DNA of 64,000 bases, from the NCBI GenBank assembly GCA_963743355.1, contig CAVUPM010000002.1, positions 2,546,825 to 2,610,824 of the forward strand. Reading direction: 5' to 3'. The DNA is from an uncultured Candidatus Rokubacteria bacterium (GTDB taxonomy: Bacteria; Methylomirabilota; Methylomirabilia; Rokubacteriales; CSP1-6). Below the pieces are notes generated by a model. That model ran no database searches, was not told the origin of the DNA, and was given only the letters and a program-made list of their open reading frames with translations. Positions 2,971 through 39,458 of the stretch are shown piece after piece. The translations under genes and the position numbers were made by a program. Within the stretch, counting starts at the first letter, position 1. Each line of letters begins with the position of its first letter.

Positions 2971-5937
2971 TCAGCGCGGGAGCGTGGAGAGACCCTGGCG
3001 GGCGGCGTCGGCGAGGTCGGTCGGCAGGTCGCCCTGGGCGAGCAGCTTGCGATAGGCGAGCTCCGCGGCCTCGTGCTGCTTGAGCGAGGCGAACGCGCGG
3101 CCGGCGGCGAGCAGACTGCGGCGGCCCTGGGGCGACGCCGGCGCCACGTAGGCGGCGGTGAGGTAGTACTCGGCCGCGGCGAGCGCATCGCCCTCCCCGC
3201 TGTAGGTGTCGCCGATGGCCTGCGCAGCCTCGGAGGCCACCGTGATCTCGTCGCTCTTCAGGAGCCGCTCGAGGACGCCGCGGGCCTGGTCCCAGCGCTT
3301 CTCCTGGGTCAGCAGCCGCGCGTGGCCGAACAGCGCGGGCGTGCTCCACTCCGGCCCCGACCCGTCGCGGGCCGCCCGGGAGTACGCCTCGAGCGCACCC
3401 GGACGATCGCCGGCCGCCTCCCGCACGCGCGCGAGGATCATCGTGGCCCGCTGGTCGTTCGGCGTATCGACGACGGCCTTCTCGATCTCCTGGCGGGCGT
3501 CGTTCACGCGGCCGGTCTCGAACAACGCCTCCGCCACGCGCACGCGCGCCGCGGCGGTGAACGGGCTCTGCGGATAGCGTTGCCGCAGCAGCGTGTCGGC
3601 CTCGTAGGCGATCGGCCACGCCTTTGCCCCGGCGGCGGCGGCGGCCACGCGCTCGAGCGCGTCGTCGGCCGTCTCGTGAGCCGCCTGGTCGGTCGCGAGT
3701 CGGCGCGCGGTGCCGAGCGCGCCCGACCAGTCACGGCCGTCGAGCGCGACCCCCGTGAGGGCGTACAGCAGCTCGCCGGCGCGATCCGCGCTGGCCGGGC
3801 CCGGCGGCAACGCCGCCAGCGCCGCCTGGGCCGGCCTGGCGAACTCGCGGACGGCCCCCGTCTGGAAGCTCGCCACCGCCATCCCGTAGTCGGCCGCGGC
3901 GACGACGTCAGGCGTGCCGGCGTCGCGCGCCTCGGAGAAGGCCTTCTTCGCGTCGTCCCAGCGCCGCTGGCGCAGCGCGATCGCGCCCGTCCCCAGGCTC
4001 GAGAACGCCGTGAGCCCCTCGCGGCGGGCCAGCGCCAGGGCACGCTGGGCGCCGGGGAGGTCGCCGGTCGCCAGCGCGGCGGCGGCGAGCGCGGCGTGGG
4101 CACGCCCGAACAGCGCCGGGAAGGGCGCGCGGCCGAGCCAGTCGTTCAGCGCGGTCCTGGCGGCGGCGGCGTCGCCCGTGCGCACCAGCACGATGCCGCG
4201 ATTCAGCCGTGCGAAGTCTGTGCGGGGATGGGTCGGGTACGTCTGCACGATCCGGTCGAGCAGGGCCCGTCCCCCCTCCAGATCGCCGGCGCTCACCGTG
4301 AGCTCGGCGGCGAGCACGAGGGCGTCGATGGCGTTCGGGTGATTGGGCGCGCTCTGCGCGAAGTCGAGGAACTCGCGCCGCGCGACGTCGGCCCGGCCCT
4401 GCCGCAGCGACGTCCAGGCGACGGCCAGGCGGAGCATCGGACTCTCGGAGGCGCCGGGGAACTCGAGCAGGGCGCGCCGGAAGGCGGCGGCCGCGACCGC
4501 GTGATCACCGACCTGGTACGCCGCCTCGGCCTGCTGGATCAGCACGGCGACGCGCAGGTCGGGCGGCAGCGGGGCATTGGCCAGGGGTGCCAGTTCGACG
4601 AGCACCTGCCGGAACTCGCGCAGCTCGAAGTTCGTACGGGCCAGGCGGAACGCCGCCTGCCACGCCGTCGGCGTGTTGCCCGCCACCTGGCGGGCCAGCT
4701 CGAACTGCGTCCGCGCCTCGTCGCGATTGCCCTGGGCGCGATCGATCTCACCCTTGACGAGGAGCACCCAGCCGCGCACCGGCGGCGTGAGATTGGCGGC
4801 CAGCAGGTCCTGCACGATCGGATCGATCTGGGCGGTCCCTGCCGAGTCGAGCGCCGTGCGCACCAGCCGCAGCTGCAGCGGCAGCGCCAGCGGCGAGCGC
4901 CGGGCGTTGAGGGCGGCGGCCGCGTCGCGGGCGCCGTTCCACTCGCCCGTGGCCAGCAGCGCCAGCGCGAGGCCGGCCTCGCCCCACTCGCGCTCCTTGC
5001 CGGTGAACGACGGGAGATGGGTGAGATAGGCGCGGAACGCCGTCACCGCCTCGGGCGCGTGCCGGGCGGCCAGCGCCCACCAGGCCAGCCGCAGCTGCGC
5101 GGTCGGCATGAGCGGGTGCGCGCCGCCGGCGATGAAGCGCTTGAGGTTGGCCTCGGCCCGGCCCGGCTCGCCGATGCGCCCGAGCGCCTCGCCGTGCCAG
5201 AACAGGATGTCGCGCCCCAGCATGACCGGCGTGCCCCGCTGCAGCGCCAGCGCCCACGCCTGCTCGGCCTCCTGATGGCGACTGAGCGCGTAGCTGGCGA
5301 GCCCCAGGCCGTGGCGCGCCCACGCCTCGATCGGCGCCGGCGCCGCCCCCGCGAGGACCGCGGTGAATGCGTCGCGCGCGCGGGTCGCGTCGCCAACCCG
5401 CAGCGCCGTCCACCCGCTCGAGTGCTGCGCCCACACGCCCCACTCCTGGCGCGGGCTGTCCTGGCCGACCTGGCGGAACAGCCAGTCGGCCTCCTCGATG
5501 CGGTTGAGACGGTAGTAGGTCTCGCCGAGCCAGTACCGGGCCTCGCGAAGGAGGTCGCGATCGGCGCCGGGACGCGCCGCGCTCTCCAGTGCCTTGGCGG
5601 CCTCTTCGAACTCGCCGCGCTGGAAGCGCGCGCGGCCACACTCCAGGGACTCCGACGGCACGCCGGTCCACGCCCCGATGCAGGGCAGCGAGCGAGGCGG
5701 CTGGGCGAACGCAACCGGCTTGTCGCCGGCCGGCACGCTGAGCGCCGCCAGCGGCAGCGGCGGCAATTCCAGCGGCGCCGGTGGCAGCGGTGCGTCGGCA
5801 AGCACGGGCGGCTTGTCGAGGGGCGCGGCGACGAACGGAACGAGCGGCGTGATCTCGGGCGGCGGCGGCAGGAACGGACGCGGCGTCGCCGCCACCAGGC
5901 CGACCCAGACCACCGCGAGCACGAGCGCGCGCCTCAC
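2971..5937 (-). CDS. Large secreted tetratricopeptide (TPR) repeat protein, 988 aa
   Basis: Signal peptide MRRALVLAVVWVGLVAA followed by many TPR-like helical repeats (Ala/Leu/Arg-rich, W..A...Y patterns). Confidence 0.7.
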   Translation of the reverse strand: MRRALVLAVVWVGLVAATPRPFLPPPPEITPLVPFVAAPLDKPPVLADAPLPPAPLELPPLPLAALSVPAGDKPVAFAQPPRSLPCIGAWTGVPSESLECGRARFQRGEFEEAAKALESAARPGADRDLLREARYWLGETYYRLNRIEEADWLFRQVGQDSPRQEWGVWAQHSSGWTALRVGDATRARDAFTAVLAGAAPAPIEAWARHGLGLASYALSRHQEAEQAWALALQRGTPVMLGRDILFWHGEALGRIGEPGRAEANLKRFIAGGAHPLMPTAQLRLAWWALAARHAPEAVTAFRAYLTHLPSFTGKEREWGEAGLALALLATGEWNGARDAAAALNARRSPLALPLQLRLVRTALDSAGTAQIDPIVQDLLAANLTPPVRGWVLLVKGEIDRAQGNRDEARTQFELARQVAGNTPTAWQAAFRLARTNFELREFRQVLVELAPLANAPLPPDLRVAVLIQQAEAAYQVGDHAVAAAAFRRALLEFPGASESPMLRLAVAWTSLRQGRADVARREFLDFAQSAPNHPNAIDALVLAAELTVSAGDLEGGRALLDRIVQTYPTHPRTDFARLNRGIVLVRTGDAAAARTALNDWLGRAPFPALFGRAHAALAAAALATGDLPGAQRALALARREGLTAFSSLGTGAIALRQRRWDDAKKAFSEARDAGTPDVVAAADYGMAVASFQTGAVREFARPAQAALAALPPGPASADRAGELLYALTGVALDGRDWSGALGTARRLATDQAAHETADDALERVAAAAAGAKAWPIAYEADTLLRQRYPQSPFTAAARVRVAEALFETGRVNDARQEIEKAVVDTPNDQRATMILARVREAAGDRPGALEAYSRAARDGSGPEWSTPALFGHARLLTQEKRWDQARGVLERLLKSDEITVASEAAQAIGDTYSGEGDALAAAEYYLTAAYVAPASPQGRRSLLAAGRAFASLKQHEAAELAYRKLLAQGDLPTDLADAARQGLSTLPR

Positions 5938-7346
5938 GACTTCTTCCCCGCCGGCTTGGACGGCTCCGAGCGCTTCGGCGCCGCGGGCGCCGCGGGGCTC
6001 GCTTTCAGCTGGGTCTTCATCGCCGTCACGCGCTCACGCGCCCAGTCGCGCAGGCCGGAGTCGGGGCTGCGGCCGGCGACGGCCTCGTAGGCGGTCAGCG
6101 CCGCTTTCCACTCCTTCTGCTCCTCGCGCGCCAGGCCCAGCCCGGCCAGCGCGCGGTACCGCGCGCCGGCCTCGACGCCGCCGACCGCGCCGACCGCCTC
6201 GAACGCCTTGGCCGCCTGGGGAAAGCGCTTCAGCTTCAGCTCGGACTCGCCGATCAGCAGCCAGGCATCGGCGCGCACGGTGTCCTCGTCGCTCTGGGCC
6301 GCCGTCGCGCCGAGCGCGCTCGCGTCCTTCCAGTTCTTCTGCTTGAACGCCGTGTCGGCCAGACTGAGCGCCAGTCGCCGGGTGAGCGCGTGCTCGGGGA
6401 ACTGGCTCTTGAGCCGGCGCCAGGCGGCGTCGACGTCCTTGGGCCGCGAGAGCTGCCTGGCGATGTCCGCCGCCCGGGAGAGGTCCTCGGCGGTGGGCGG
6501 GCTCTGCTCCATCAAGGCTTTGTAGGCGTCGAGCATCTCGTCCTTGTTGCCGGACCGGCCGAGCGCCTGATTGATGAGCTTCTGCGCCACGGGCGCCTGC
6601 TCGTGCGACGGGTTGGCCGCGACGAACGCGCGCAGGTCGGCGAGACCGCCGCGCGGATCGCCGTTGTTGACCTTCACCCAGCCGAGCAGGTACTGGGCGT
6701 CGGGAATCAGCTTGGAGCTGGGATACTTCGTCGCAAACGTGGTGAGGAGCGGCAGCGCGTCGCTGGGGTGCTTGAGCTCGATCTGCGCCCGCGCGAGGTG
6801 CAGCGTGGCCGAGGGCGCCAGCGCGTGCTCGGGCCAGGTCGTCAGGAACTCGCGGAGCGCGGTGACGGCCGGCTCGGGGCGCTGCAGCTCGAGCTCGGTC
6901 CACGCCAAGCCGTACATCGCCTCGGGGGCGAGCGGCGAGGCGGCGTCGGTGCGCACGACTTCGTCGTACAGGGTCCGGGCCTCGCCGAATCGCTTGAGTC
7001 GGAACAGCGCCTCGGCCTGCCAGAACTTCGTCTCCAGCAGTTCGGCCGGCGCCGTGAGCGAGCCCTGCGTCCGGGCGAACGCCTCGAGGGCCGATTGCGG
7101 GTCGTTGAGGGCCAGGCGCGCCTTGCCGAGCATGACGAGGGCCCGGGCGCCGCGCGGGTCCTTGGGATACTGCGCGACGAACCGCTCGAGCGCGCGACGG
7201 GCGACCGGGTAGAACCGATCGGCCAGGGCCCGCTCGCCGACCATGAACAGACGATCGGCCTCGTCGAGCGCCGATACGGGGGCGACTGCGACCACCAGCA
7301 CCAGGAGCGCAGCGAGGGTCGAAACCATCGCCAGGCAGCGCTTCAT
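5934..7346 (-). CDS. Secreted TPR repeat protein, 470 aa, YbgF/CpoB-like architecture
   Basis: Signal peptide MKRCLAMVSTLAALLVLVVAVAPVSA; repeated TPR units; 4-bp ATGA overlap with the downstream TPR gene. Confidence 0.65.
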   Translation of the reverse strand: MKRCLAMVSTLAALLVLVVAVAPVSALDEADRLFMVGERALADRFYPVARRALERFVAQYPKDPRGARALVMLGKARLALNDPQSALEAFARTQGSLTAPAELLETKFWQAEALFRLKRFGEARTLYDEVVRTDAASPLAPEAMYGLAWTELELQRPEPAVTALREFLTTWPEHALAPSATLHLARAQIELKHPSDALPLLTTFATKYPSSKLIPDAQYLLGWVKVNNGDPRGGLADLRAFVAANPSHEQAPVAQKLINQALGRSGNKDEMLDAYKALMEQSPPTAEDLSRAADIARQLSRPKDVDAAWRRLKSQFPEHALTRRLALSLADTAFKQKNWKDASALGATAAQSDEDTVRADAWLLIGESELKLKRFPQAAKAFEAVGAVGGVEAGARYRALAGLGLAREEQKEWKAALTAYEAVAGRSPDSGLRDWARERVTAMKTQLKASPAAPAAPKRSEPSKPAGKKS

Positions 7347-26293: not shown

Positions 26294-28396
26294 CTACTTC
26301 AGCGAGGCGGCCGCCCGCAGGCCGAGCGCCTCGCGGACCTTGGCCTCGAGGTCGGCCAGCGCCACCGGGTTCTCCTGCAGCCACTTCTTGGCGTTCTCCC
26401 GGCCCTGCCCGATGCGCTCGTTCTTGAAGCTGTACCAGGTGCCGGACTTCTCGACGAGGCTCTGCTCGACCGCCGCGTCGAGCACGGTCCCCGACTTGGA
26501 CACACCCTCGCCGTAGATGACGTCGAACTCGGCCTCGCGGAACGGCGGCGCCAGCTTGTTCTTCACGACCTTCACCTTGGTGCGCACGCCGATCGACTCC
26601 GTCCCCTGCTTGATCGCATCCTGCCGCCGGATGTCCAGCCGCACGGAGGCGTAGAACTTGAGCGCGCGCCCGCCGGTCGTGGTTTCTGGCGAGTTGTGCA
26701 CGACGACGCCGTCGGCCAGGTAGGTATGGTTGCCCTCGATCTCGAGGTCGAAGCGGTGCGTCGACCGCGTCGGTGGCTTGATGTAGCACTTCGTGATCTC
26801 GACAGGGACAACGCGCAGTCGGCGTCGGCCCGCGAGGCGCTCAGTCTCACTCAGATGAGCATCTCCATCGTCGACGTGCCAGATGAACCGGCCCCTCTGA
26901 GAGGGATGCAGCTTGTAGTCCATCGAGGGATGAAGGTATGGCGAGATCAGCTCGTGAAACCGGGCCGTGTCCTCGGAGTTGAACCAGAAACCGCGATCAT
27001 CGTCACGAACATCGGGGAACCCAAGGCGGGCCAAGGCCCCGAGGACTACGGCGCGTCCGGCAGCCTTCAATGACGTATTGTAGATGACTGCCTTGCCCTT
27101 GCCCCAGCGATTGTAAGACCCCATGAAGGAGCCGTCGTCGCCATACCAGACAGCGAGCCCTCGGGCATCGAGGCGGCCGAGACCGGGGTTCGTTGCGATG
27201 CGGCGTCCGGTCGTGTCGTAGAGCTCACCGTGCAGTTCAGCAAGGGCAGGCATCGTGAGAATGCTGAACCCGACGCCGTTGCCGACCCGGCCAATCGGCC
27301 GCGCGAAGGGTTCGAGCATCGAATGCTTCCATTCCAGGTAAGCCTTTTGCGCCGGCGCGTGGGCCACCCGGAAATGCGCGGCGTGACGCCCCACCATACG
27401 GATCGAACCGTCGCCTAGGGTCCCCCCGAGCAGAAGCTGGTACTGGTCACCGGACAACGCATAGTCCGGCATGGCGAACAGCACCTTGTCACCGACCTTC
27501 AGCTTACCCGCAGGAACTTCACCAGTGGGGGTAAAGACCATGTGGTTCGGAGTCGCGGCAAAGCAGCGTCGGCGCGCTGGTCCTCCACGAACTTCAAACT
27601 GAATAAAGTGCTCGGTCACGCCGTTGTCGAACCAGTTGACGACGCGGCGAGGCTCTACCCGTCCGCTCTCGGGATCGTACGAGAGCACCTCCACCGCTCG
27701 ACGTTCCCGGACGATCCGACCGATCGGTACGCGGGTTCCATCGGCTAGAAGCACGAGAGTGTCGTGATGCAGACACCCAAACATTACTCCGATCTTCTCG
27801 CGGATCTGGTTGATGAAGACGACGACGACGCCGGAGCGGGAGATGGCGGCGGTGAGCTTGCGCAGGGCCTGCGACATGAGGCGCGCCTGCAGGCCGGGCA
27901 GCGAGTCGCCCATGTCGCCGTCGAGCTCGGCGCGCGGCACCAGCGCGGCGACCGAGTCGATCACGATGACGTCGACCGCGTTGGAACGCACGAGCGTCTC
28001 GGTGATCTCCAGCGCCTGCTCGCCGGTGTCGGGCTGCGAGATCAGCAGCTCGTCGATGTTGACGCCGAGCTTGCGCGCGTAGATGGGATCGAGGGCGTGC
28101 TCGGCGTCGATGAAGGCCGCGATGCCGCCCAGGTTCTGGGCCTCGGCGATGACGTGCAGGGCCAGCGTCGTCTTGCCCGACGACTCCGGCCCGTAGATCT
28201 CGACGACCCGACCGCGCGGCAGGCCCCCGATGCCGAGCGCGGCGTCGAGCGAGAGGGCGCCGGTGGGGATGACGGCGATCTCCTCGAGCGGGCCGTTCGC
28301 GCCCAGCCGCATGACCGAGCCCTTGCCGAACTGTCGCTCGATCTGCGAGATCGCCAGCTCGAGGGCCTGCCGCCGATCGTTCTTGCTCTCAGCCAT
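26294..28396 (-). CDS. recA: Recombinase RecA interrupted by an in-frame intein (700-codon ORF: 207-aa N-extein, 361-aa intein, 132-aa C-extein)
   Basis: RBS AAGGAG then [26 protein letters not shown]...; Walker [10 protein letters not shown]; the extein junction ...KIGVMFG/[[10 protein letters not shown]...GVVVHN]/[23 protein letters not shown]. Confidence 0.9.
26693..27775 (-). mobile_element. RecA intein of 361 aa with Hint splicing blocks and a double-motif LAGLIDADG homing endonuclease, at the RecA-a insertion site
   Basis: Block [22 protein letters not shown] at N-end; block G ...[17 protein letters not shown] followed by +1 Ser; LAGLIDADG-like [12 protein letters not shown] and VWYGDDGSF; markedly lower GC (about 58-60%) than the flanking recA exteins. 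Confidence 0.8.
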
Positions 28397-28445
28397 GCGT
28401 AGGCTCCTTGTCTCGTGTAAGGGTCGAACGCGGCTCACGAGGGTG

Positions 28446-28487
28446 ATGCACGCGTGCATTCTAGGTGCGTGCGCACGACACCGTCAA
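28446..28487 (-). promoter_or_regulatory. Near-consensus sigma70 promoter for recA (TTGACG-18-TAGAAT) overlapped by a perfect 14-bp palindrome ATGCACGCGTGCAT (candidate SOS/repressor operator)
   Basis: On the recA strand: ttgacggtgtcgtgcgcacgcacctagaatgcacgcgtgcatcac; -35 at 28482-28487, -10 at 28458-28463, palindrome 28446-28459, a second palindrome GTGCGCAC in the spacer. Confidence 0.45.
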
Positions 28488-28525
28488 TGTCCCGGATCGC
28501 GGACAGCGATCTTTTTCGCCGGGGC

Positions 28526-28765
28526 TCACCCATCACGCCGGCTCGTGTAGCCCTTGCGCTCCATGCACTCGTTGATCGCCTCCTGGTCCAGGCGCCCCGC
28601 GCGCGTCACCGCGAACCACTGCGGGCGAACCGACTGCCGCCGGCAGGCTTCCAGGTCATGATCGAGACCGGCCGGCGTCAAGCCGGGCTTGGCGTAGGTC
28701 CACGGCTCGGTCGCGCATCCCGCCAGCAGGCCGAGCCCGAGCACCGCCCAGGCGCGGCCCCTCAC
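28526..28765 (-). CDS. Small Cys-containing lipoprotein (79 aa), GTG start overlapping the patatin stop (GTGA)
   Basis: MRGRAWAVLGLGLLAGC lipobox, then ATEPWTYAKPGLTP...EACRRQ...LDQEAINECMERKGYTS; paralog of the lipoprotein at 55588-55914. Confidence 0.45.
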   Translation of the reverse strand: MRGRAWAVLGLGLLAGCATEPWTYAKPGLTPAGLDHDLEACRRQSVRPQWFAVTRAGRLDQEAINECMERKGYTSRRDG

Positions 28766-29727
28766 GGGCGGTCCGCCTGCCAGCGCTCGAGGCACCGCAC
28801 CGCGTCGGCCCGGCCGCGCGCGAGCGCCGCGATCATGCCAGCCGGATCGAACTCGAGCGGCCGCAGTTGCAGCGGCCCCCCCGGCGTGAGGAGCTGAACG
28901 TCCACGGCCGGGTACTTGAAGCGCGCCAGCTCGGCGTCGCGCCGGATCTGATGAATCATCGCCGTCTCGAATGCCTCCTCCAGCGTGCGGCGCAAGCGAG
29001 TGGGTGCCTGGCCGGGCTCGTCGGCGGCGTAGCTCAACAGCACGAGCGCGCGGCCGATCGGGACCTCGGTCGCCAGCGCCTCCAGCACCGGCGCGCGGCC
29101 GGTGAGCCCGCCGTCGACGAGCAGCGTGCCGTCCACGCTCACCGGCGGGAAGGCGCCGGGCACCGCCGCCGCCGCCATCAGCGCGTCCACGCTGACCGTG
29201 GCGTTGTCGAAGATGCGGGGCGCGCGCCGGGCCAGGTCGGTGGTGACGACGAGCAAGCGGCGGGGCGAGACGCGGATGCGCTCGACGTCCAGCGCGCCGG
29301 CGATCAGCTCGCGCAGCGGGGTCGGGTCGAAGAGCGAGCCAGCCGCGTCGAGCGCGAGAAGCGTCAGCCAGCCCGGCAACAGGCCGGCGAAGATCACGCT
29401 GGGACGGAAGGCGTACACCTGCTCGCGTGACAGCGAGCGCCAGAGCGCCTGCAGCCGGTCGAGACGTCCGTCGGCGAGCATGGCCGCGTTGAGGGCGCCG
29501 GCCGAGGAGCCGGCGACCAGGTTCACCGGCAGGCCGCGCTCGATGAGGGCCGCGGCGGCGCCGGCCTCCCACGCGCCCTTGGCCCCCCCGCCGGACAGGA
29601 CGAGCGCGACGGGCGTGTCGAGGGCCGTGCGGGCCGGCTCGCAGGCGTGCGCGGGGGTCACCGAGACGAGAAGGACGGCGGCGAGCAGCGTGCGGAGCGC
29701 CCGTGGGGCTGACGGCACGCCCCACAT
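28762..29727 (-). CDS. Secreted patatin-like phospholipase
   Basis: Signal peptide MWGVPSAPRALRTLLAAVLLVSVTPAHA; oxyanion GGGAKG, nucleophile elbow GSSAG, catalytic DGG (LVDGGL). Confidence 0.8.
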   Translation of the reverse strand: MWGVPSAPRALRTLLAAVLLVSVTPAHACEPARTALDTPVALVLSGGGAKGAWEAGAAAALIERGLPVNLVAGSSAGALNAAMLADGRLDRLQALWRSLSREQVYAFRPSVIFAGLLPGWLTLLALDAAGSLFDPTPLRELIAGALDVERIRVSPRRLLVVTTDLARRAPRIFDNATVSVDALMAAAAVPGAFPPVSVDGTLLVDGGLTGRAPVLEALATEVPIGRALVLLSYAADEPGQAPTRLRRTLEEAFETAMIHQIRRDAELARFKYPAVDVQLLTPGGPLQLRPLEFDPAGMIAALARGRADAVRCLERWQADRP

Positions 29728-39371: not shown

Positions 39372-39400
39372 TTGACACCCGTGAGACCGGCGCCTAGAAT
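39372..39400 (+). promoter_or_regulatory. Near-consensus sigma70 promoter TTGACA-17-TAGAAT for the liv-type transporter operon
   Basis: gaTTGACAcccgtgagaccggcgccTAGAATtcc about 60 nt upstream of the ATG at 39459 (RBS CAGGAGGA). Confidence 0.5.
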
Positions 39401-39458
39401 TCCGCCACTTGCGCGCGGAGGACATTCCTACGGAGGGACTCCTCAGGAGGACATTTCC

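What the first reader, a model, noticed from the sequence alone, without database searches (positions are those of the whole stretch)
28446..28487. recA promoter with a near-consensus sigma70 box and an overlapping perfect palindrome ATGCACGCGTGCAT
On the recA strand the upstream region reads TTGACG-18 bp-TAGAAT, followed immediately by the 14-bp palindrome and then RBS AAGGAG. The spacer holds a second palindrome, GTGCGCAC. The 14-mer does not match the E. coli (CTGT-N8-ACAG) or Gram-positive (CGAAC-N4-GTTCG) LexA boxes. It could be a lineage-specific SOS operator or another repressor site.
Basis: seen in the sequence. Interest (0 to 1): 0.5.

Follow-up and report, generated by a model that had tools for sequence, protein, structure and literature searches.

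The report
recA promoter with clade-specific palindrome
This is the real, conserved promoter of the DNA-repair gene recA in a soil Rokubacteria genome, but the eye-catching 14-base palindrome is perfect only in the closest relatives, so its role as a DNA-damage switch remains unproven.

Summary
On the minus strand, TTGACG-18 bp-TAGAAT (28487-28458) precedes the perfect palindrome ATGCACGCGTGCAT (28459-28446), then AAGGAG and the recA ATG (28396). The palindrome overlaps the last two bases of the -10 box rather than following it. The RBS lies 36 nt further on.

The genome is a Rokubacteria/Methylomirabilota member. Ten distinct orthologous recA promoters (RecA 94-98% identical) keep the -35 box, the -10 box and a 10-nt block just after the -10 (GCWCSCGTGC). 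That block is as conserved as the hexamers; the next 10 nt are not conserved.

The full 14-mer is perfect in only two variants. Its outer bases drift, position 5 changes A to T without a matching change at position 10, and there are no compensatory changes. More distant Methylomirabilota recA promoters lack the block entirely. Perfect palindromes of 14 bp or more are common in this 72% GC DNA (25 observed, about 17.5 expected). The spacer palindrome is not conserved.

No described LexA box is present, and the motif does not recur in the window. I could not retrieve lexA or other SOS promoters of this lineage, so the regulon test was not done.

Best reading (about 0.4): the conserved -6..+5 dyad core is a gene-specific operator for an unidentified repressor. 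The close rival is a promoter or initial-transcript constraint with a fortuitous palindrome.

The parts
28482..28487 (-). -35 hexamer TTGACG, inside the invariant context GACATTGACGG
   Evidence: The context is invariant in all 10 orthologous promoter variants: 10 of 12 columns invariant, mean pairwise identity 0.92.
28468..28477 (.).
   Evidence: It is present only in the window, L082 and L081. L281 has one mismatch, and the other variants have different spacer sequences and a 17- or 18-nt spacer. It is not conserved, and a palindrome of this size is expected by chance in GC-rich DNA.
28458..28463 (-). -10 hexamer TAGAAT (TAGGAT in two sister clades), preceded by an invariant CC
   Evidence: Seven of 8 columns of CCTAGRAT are invariant, with mean pairwise identity 0.96.
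28446..28459 (.). The 14-bp perfect palindrome ATGCACGCGTGCAT, spanning about -8 to +6 of the predicted start site
   Evidence: It is unique in the window even with 2 mismatches allowed. Across the 10 variants the number of complementary pairs kept (out of 7) is 7, 7, 6, 6, 6, 6, 5, 4, 4 and 3.
28448..28457 (-). Conserved 10-nt block GCACGCGTGC (consensus GCWCSCGTGC) directly downstream of the -10. This is the inner dyad core of the palindrome.
   Evidence: Seven of 10 columns are invariant, with mean pairwise identity 0.91. The next 10 nt have 0 invariant columns and identity 0.45.
28451..28451 (-). Predicted transcription start (G, the 7th nt after the -10 hexamer)
   Evidence: Inferred from standard sigma70 promoter geometry. 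Not measured.
28404..28409 (-). Ribosome-binding site AAGGAG, 7 nt before the start codon
   Evidence: CAAGGAGCC or GAAGGAGCC is conserved in all variants.
26294..28396 (-). recA, interrupted by an intein at 26693-27775

Best explanation
The feature is the principal sigma70-type promoter of recA in a Rokubacteria (Methylomirabilota) genome. Immediately after the -10 box lies a GC-rich dyad core, GCAC-GC-GTGC, at about -6 to +5. The most likely function of this core is a gene-specific operator. A dimeric repressor bound there would block open-complex formation or promoter escape. It would be released under some condition, most plausibly DNA damage. LexA is one candidate for that repressor, but an unidentified one here.

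The perfect 14-bp palindrome is a clade-specific extension of this core. It uses the AT of the -10 hexamer on one side and two non-conserved bases on the other.

Shown: the promoter, its conservation, and the sharp conservation boundary. Inferred: the start site, protein binding, repression and the inducing signal.
For: - The promoter is the only sigma70-like site in the region, at 10 of 12 matches. It is conserved in 10 distinct orthologous variants.
- The 10-nt block after the -10 has 7 of 10 invariant columns and 0.91 mean identity. That equals the -35 (0.92), the -10 (0.96) and the SD (0.89). The next 10 nt have 0 invariant columns (0.45), and the 20 nt upstream of the -35 score 0.57.
- The block is not a general promoter requirement. 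The other strong promoter in the window (39372, TTGACA-17-TAGAAT) lacks it. So do the recA promoters of more distant Methylomirabilota.
- The inner pairs are complementary in 8-9 of 9 variants: G3-C12, C4-G11, C6-G9 and G7-C8.
- A position of -8 to +6 is typical for repressor operators. recA is a core LexA target across phyla (PMC8565304).
- None of the described LexA boxes is present. If recA is damage-regulated here, the site must therefore be of a new type.
- An RNA-level role is not supported. The 5'UTR folds have z-scores between -1 and +1, and there is no Rfam match.
Against: - There are no compensatory changes in 7 pairs across 9 variants.
- Position 5 is T instead of A in 4 of 10 variants, in at least two separate groups by 5'UTR type. 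Its partner T10 never changes.
- The outer pair is kept in only 4 of 10 variants.
- The left arm cannot be separated from selection on the -10 box.
- Three variants (L287, L091, L102) keep the block but only 3-4 of 7 dyad pairs. This suggests the sequence is conserved, not the symmetry.
- The motif does not recur in 64 kb: the hits with 3 mismatches are at chance level, 3 found against 4.1 expected.
- The block is absent from the recA promoters of other Methylomirabilota families. LexA motifs, by contrast, are usually stable across broad groups (PMC8565304).
- No repressor gene was found nearby.
- Palindromes of this length are common in this DNA.
Confidence: 0.4

Rival explanations
1. This is an ordinary strong recA promoter, and the palindrome is fortuitous. 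The conserved -6..+5 block reflects constraints on the promoter itself, not a transcription factor site. Such constraints include a GC-rich discriminator, start-site selection, and the effect of the initial transcribed sequence on escape or growth-rate control. The block GC.CGCG.GC happens to be self-complementary, as many GC-rich strings are. In one clade, drift at three positions completed a 14-mer with the AT of the -10.
For: - The window has 25 perfect palindromes of 14 bp or more against 17.5 expected.
- There are no compensatory changes, and the outer positions drift.
- Conservation stops at +5, inside the palindrome.
- The conserved part is asymmetric (ATGC.C.CGTG) and survives in variants where the dyad is broken (L287, L091, L102).
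- The motif does not recur in the window.
- No regulator gene is adjacent.
Against: - Known RNA polymerase contacts downstream of the -10 (discriminator, core recognition element) reach only to about +2. The invariant bases here run to +4/+5 (established knowledge of sigma70 promoters).
- The only other strong promoter in the window lacks the block. So do the recA promoters of related families. It is therefore not a lineage-wide polymerase preference.
Confidence: 0.33
2. The palindrome, or its core, is specifically the LexA box of Rokubacteria. This would be a new LexA-binding motif (TGCAC-N2-GTGCA). It has the same 14-bp overall size as the GAAC-N4-GTTC class, and it would repress recA until RecA-stimulated self-cleavage. 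This is a subset of the best explanation.
For: - recA is a core LexA target (PMC8565304).
- LexA motifs differ widely between phyla, with 17 motifs reported (PMC8565304).
- The site is 14 bp, palindromic and overlaps the -10/+1 region.
- No known box is present. The classical GAAC-N4-GTTC box, by contrast, is readily seen upstream of recA in 34 occurrences among 77 loci of other phyla.
Against: - The presence of lexA in this lineage was not established.
- The motif is not conserved in the recA promoters of other Methylomirabilota families.
- The dyad decays without compensation inside the family.
- recA escapes LexA control in several phyla, including Acidobacteria and Deltaproteobacteria (PMC4951493).
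- The arm spacing differs from every described LexA motif.
Confidence: 0.17
3. The palindrome acts at the RNA level, as a 5'-terminal hairpin or leader structure that affects mRNA stability or translation.
For: The 14-mer can form a 5-bp hairpin, and the leader contains short inverted repeats such as CTCGTG...CACGAG.
Against: - With the predicted start at 28451, the left arm is not transcribed.
- Leader folds are no better than shuffled sequences, with z-scores from -1.0 to +1.0 in 7 sequences.
- There is no Rfam match.
- The leader downstream of +5 is poorly conserved and has indels.
Confidence: 0.04

Closest known systems
LexA (SOS) operators overlapping recA promoters, e.g. GAAC-N4-GTTC (Firmicutes/Actinobacteria), TGTTC-N4-GAACA (Verrucomicrobia), CTGT-N8-ACAG (Gammaproteobacteria)
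   Same: It is a palindromic site 14 bp long that overlaps the core promoter of recA. Lineage-specific sequence is the rule for LexA boxes (PMC4951493, PMC8565304).
   Different: The sequence and arm spacing match none of the described motifs. Recurrence at lexA or other SOS genes was not shown. The dyad is not maintained among close orthologues, and the site is absent in other families of the same phylum.
LexA-independent recA promoters, with recA outside the LexA regulon in Acidobacteria, Deltaproteobacteria and Opitutae (PMC4951493)
   Same: No recognisable LexA box lies upstream of recA, and the promoter looks strong and constitutive.
   Different: Here a gene-specific conserved block sits at the start site. 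That block is not explained by a purely constitutive promoter.
GC-rich discriminator or initial-transcribed-region control of sigma70 promoters (stringent or growth-rate control of rRNA-type promoters; established E. coli knowledge)
   Same: There is a GC-rich sequence between the -10 and +1 of a near-consensus promoter, conserved together with the hexamers.
   Different: Conservation extends to +4/+5, and the block is not shared by the other strong promoter in the window. No data exist on ppGpp/DksA-type control in this phylum.

Membership tests
sigma70-type promoter | -35 and -10 hexamers close to TTGACA/TATAAT with a 16-18 nt spacer, placed upstream of a gene with an RBS | tested here: met
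   TTGACG-18-TAGAAT matches 10 of 12 positions and is the only such site in 1.2 kb (0.1 expected). AAGGAG lies 7 nt before the ATG.
sigma70-type promoter | Conservation of the hexamers in orthologous promoters | tested here: met
   All ten variants carry TTGACG and TAGRAT with a 17-18 nt spacer.
LexA/SOS box | Matches a described LexA-binding motif | tested here: not met
   Eleven described motifs were scanned with up to 1 mismatch in 13 Methylomirabilota recA upstream regions. Only three sporadic, non-conserved hits were found.
LexA/SOS box | The same motif recurs upstream of lexA and other core SOS genes of the genome | not testable with these tools
   No lexA or other core SOS gene is in the window or the Rokubacteria loci. 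The LexA search returned other phyla. Within the window there is no second copy.
LexA/SOS box | The dyad is conserved in orthologous promoters across the clade | tested here: inconclusive
   The inner 10-bp core is kept with at most 1 mismatch in 8 of 10 variants. The full 14-mer is perfect in only 2 of 10. There are no compensatory changes. The site is absent in more distant families.
LexA/SOS box | A lexA gene is present in the genome | not testable with these tools
   Only 64 kb of the genome is available, and phmmer with E. coli LexA found nothing in it.
Structured 5' leader RNA | A stable, conserved secondary structure or an Rfam match | tested here: not met
   Fold z-scores range from -1.0 to +1.0. 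There is no Rfam hit at E<=1.

The most novel reading that the evidence does not exclude
The conserved core TGCWCGCGTGCA at the recA start site is the operator of the DNA-damage repressor of Rokubacteria. That repressor would be LexA with a previously undescribed binding motif, or a non-LexA repressor. This would add a new motif and regulon for an uncultured soil phylum.
Probability: 0.17. Interest if true: 0.5.

Novelty: new member of a known kind. Interest (0 to 1): 0.25.

Why it matters
If the conserved core is an operator, it would give the first handle on how an abundant, uncultured soil phylum (Rokubacteria/Methylomirabilota) controls its DNA-damage response. It would also add another case to the unusually variable LexA-motif story. 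If it is not an operator, the locus is simply a well-conserved strong recA promoter. It then serves as a caution that perfect 14-bp palindromes occur by the dozen per 64 kb in 72% GC DNA.

Tried and rejected
- **Metagenome scan for the exact 14-mer.** All 80 loci were unrelated chance contexts and none was a recA promoter. One hit lay at a cinA start codon (L236), but that CinA is only about 40% identical to the Methylomirabilota proteins. The scan is uninformative for the regulon test.
- **Viral-contig scan.** It gave 50 chance hits.
- **Search for lexA.** phmmer with E. coli LexA against all ORFs of the window and 299 loci found LexA only in unrelated phyla. A made-up high-GC LexA consensus returned only Bacillota, Coriobacteriia and Armatimonadota proteins. 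None sat on a known Rokubacteria contig.
- **Exact look-up of the window's RecA precursor.** It is not on record.
- **Genome-contig scan with RecA.** The only Methylomirabilota hit (L001) starts inside recA, so it has no upstream sequence.
- **N-terminal extension of recA.** The ATG inside the -10 (28459) is in frame with recA. It was rejected as a start because relatives L091 and L102 have in-frame stops there.
- **MerR-type spacer operator.** Rejected: the spacer is 17-18 nt and the spacer palindrome is not conserved.
- **Upstream small ORF as a regulator.** Rejected: it is a lipoprotein (lipobox LLAGC) with no Pfam hit.
- **RNA structure.** Rejected.
- **Similar TGCAC-N2-GTGCA sites upstream of recA in other phyla.** None was found in 77 loci.

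Full report
**Observation**

Reading the minus strand of 28200-28800 gives ...GGGACA TTGACG GTGTCGTGCGCACGCACC TAGAAT GCACGCGTGCAT CACCC...(36 nt)...AAGGAG CCTACGC ATG GCT GAG.
- The -35 hexamer is at 28487-28482 and the -10 hexamer at 28463-28458.
- The 14-bp perfect palindrome ATGCACGCGTGCAT is at 28459-28446.
- The RBS is at 28409-28404 and the recA start codon at 28396.
- A consensus scan finds this as the only sigma70-like promoter in 27900-29100, at 10 of 12 matches against 0.1 expected.

The description is therefore correct, with three small corrections. The palindrome overlaps the last two bases of the -10 box. The RBS is 36 nt further downstream. The spacer palindrome is really the 10-mer CGTGCGCACG.

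With standard promoter geometry the start site falls at about 28451. The palindrome then covers roughly -8 to +6. This placement is an inference, not a measurement.

**Is it more than chance?**

The window is about 72% G+C. It contains 25 perfect palindromes of 14 bp or more, against a mean of 17.5 in first-order Markov simulations. A 14-bp palindrome as such is therefore ordinary here, and 10-bp ones are trivial. The location is what is unusual: about 0.02 would be expected in a 60-bp promoter stretch. The 14-mer is unique in the window even with two mismatches. With three mismatches there are 3 hits against 4.1 expected. Shorter core patterns also do not recur.

**Context**

The downstream gene is recA (PF00154, E 4e-133). 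It is followed by recX and alaS. The recA ORF is 700 codons long because it carries a 361-residue intein.

The genes upstream on the same strand encode:
- a small lipoprotein;
- a patatin-like lipase;
- a LigT/ThpR phosphoesterase;
- CinA;
- PgpA;
- a MiaB/RimO-like enzyme.

No transcription factor lies next to recA. No lexA or other core SOS gene is present in the 64 kb.

The spliced RecA has hundreds of 94-98% identical, intein-less homologues in soil metagenomes. Several are named Rokubacteria/Methylomirabilota. The best species-representative genome hit is a Methylomirabilota MAG at 82% identity.

**Phylogenetic footprint**

I fetched contigs for eight RecA clusters of this family. Together with the window they gave ten distinct promoter variants. 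All ten have GACATTGACGG, a 17-18 nt spacer, CCTAGRAT and then GCWCSCGTGC.

| Segment | Invariant columns | Mean pairwise identity |
|---|---|---|
| 20 nt upstream of the -35 | 3 of 20 | 0.57 |
| -35 block | 10 of 12 | 0.92 |
| -10 block | 7 of 8 | 0.96 |
| 10 nt after the -10 | 7 of 10 | 0.91 |
| next 10 nt | 0 of 10 | 0.45 |
| Shine-Dalgarno block | 7 of 10 | 0.89 |

The conservation boundary therefore falls inside the palindrome. Its last two bases belong to the unconserved part.

The 14-mer reads as follows in the ten variants:
- ATGCACGCGTGCAT in the window and in L082;
- ...GCAA in L081;
- ...GCAG in L281 and L286;
- ...GCCT in L299;
- ATGCTCCCGTGCAT in L282;
- ATGCTCGCGTGCGC in L287;
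- ATGCTCGCGTGCCC in L102;
- ATGCTCGCGTGAGC in L091.

Counting the seven dyad pairs over nine variants gives 79% of cells paired and no pair with a change on both sides. Four pairs depart only by breaking. Position 5 is T in four variants, while its partner T10 is invariant. The spacer palindrome is confined to the three closest variants.

**Wider phylum**

I also examined three further Methylomirabilota lineages, whose RecA proteins are 88-92% identical to that of the MAG locus L001, itself 82% identical to the window's RecA. One is named Methylomirabilis. They have a different architecture:
- two tandem promoters, a distal GGACATTGACA-17-CACACT and a proximal TTGACT-18-TAGAAT/TAGGAT/TATCAT;
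- a leader of about 95 nt;
- no GCWCSCGTGC block.

None of eleven described LexA motifs is conserved in any of the 13 upstream regions. The same simple scan finds the classical GAAC-N4-GTTC box 34 times upstream of recA among 77 loci of other phyla. It finds no TGCAC-N2-GTGCA-like site there.

**Other readings tested**

Leader RNA folds are no more stable than shuffles, with z-scores from -1.0 to +1.0. There is no Rfam match. With the predicted start site, the left arm would not even be transcribed.

The ATG inside the -10 is in frame with recA, but it is followed by stop codons in two relatives. It is therefore not a start codon.

The only other strong promoter in the window (39372, TTGACA-17-TAGAAT) is not followed by the block. 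The block is therefore not a general polymerase preference.

**Regulon test**

The regulon test could not be done, for four reasons:
- LexA could not be retrieved for this lineage.
- The literature held here has nothing on LexA in Rokubacteria or Methylomirabilis.

**Interpretation**

The promoter is real and conserved. The striking 14-bp palindrome is a recent, clade-specific completion of a shorter conserved element, and it is not itself under detectable selection for symmetry.

The shorter element (about -6 to +5) is conserved as strongly as the hexamers. It is gene-specific and intrinsically dyad-symmetric in four of five pairs. Invariant bases beyond +2 are not explained by known polymerase contacts.

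I therefore rank a repressor operator first, at about 0.4. LexA specifically accounts for about 0.17 of that. A promoter or initial-transcript constraint with a fortuitous palindrome is a close second, at about 0.33.

Two published points cut in opposite directions. LexA motifs are usually stable over broad groups (PMC8565304), which counts against the LexA reading. recA lies outside the LexA regulon in several phyla (PMC4951493), which makes a non-LexA or constitutive promoter plausible.

**Verdict**

This is an accurately observed promoter with an unproven, modestly supported candidate operator. It is ordinary in kind and of low to moderate interest until a genome-wide motif scan or a binding assay is done.

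Noticed in passing
window 26693-27775 (- strand), inside recA 26294-28396: recA is interrupted by a 361-residue intein (residues 208-568) between GVMFG and SPETTTGG. The intein has a LAGLIDADG_2 endonuclease domain. Its splicing domain is related to the M. tuberculosis RecA intein PI-MtuI (E 6e-12). All 120 closest RecA homologues (94-98% identical) are intein-less at 339-364 aa. The exact 700-aa product is not in the protein collection.
   Followed up: partly
window 28488-28505: The dyad TGTCC-N8-GGACA abuts the -35 box. The outer CTGTC...GACA is kept at a fixed distance in 7 of 10 orthologous promoters. It could be a second regulatory site, or the remnant of a terminator for the upstream lipoprotein gene.
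   Followed up: partly
L291, L294, L296 about 5740-6000 (upstream of recA at 6001): More distant Methylomirabilota have two tandem recA promoters: a distal GGACATTGACA-17-CACACT and a proximal TTGACT-18-TAGAAT-like one. They also have a leader of about 95 nt with conserved GAAC...ATCG...TTTGCG stretches. L298 carries a duplication of about 60 nt of the distal promoter.
   Followed up: no
L291 7065-8261, L294 7069-8244, L296 7058-8230: In those lineages a T2SSE-type (PF00437) ATPase gene sits between recA and recX. It is absent from the window's family.
   Followed up: no
window 39372-39406 (+ strand): This is the second strong sigma70-like promoter of the window (TTGACA-17-TAGAAT, 11 of 12 matches). 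It lies upstream of a periplasmic binding protein gene (Peripla_BP_6) of a branched-chain amino acid ABC transporter cluster.
   Followed up: no
window 28526-28801 (- strand): A small conserved ORF of about 79-85 aa lies directly upstream of the recA promoter and encodes a lipoprotein (lipobox LLAGC) with no Pfam family. It is present in all relatives of the family but absent in the more distant lineages, as is the GCWCSCGTGC block.
   Followed up: partly
window 28396-28459 (- strand): the ORF listing extends the recA ORF to an ATG inside the -10/palindrome (721 aa). This in-frame extension is an artefact, because relatives L091 and L102 have stop codons in it.
   Followed up: yes
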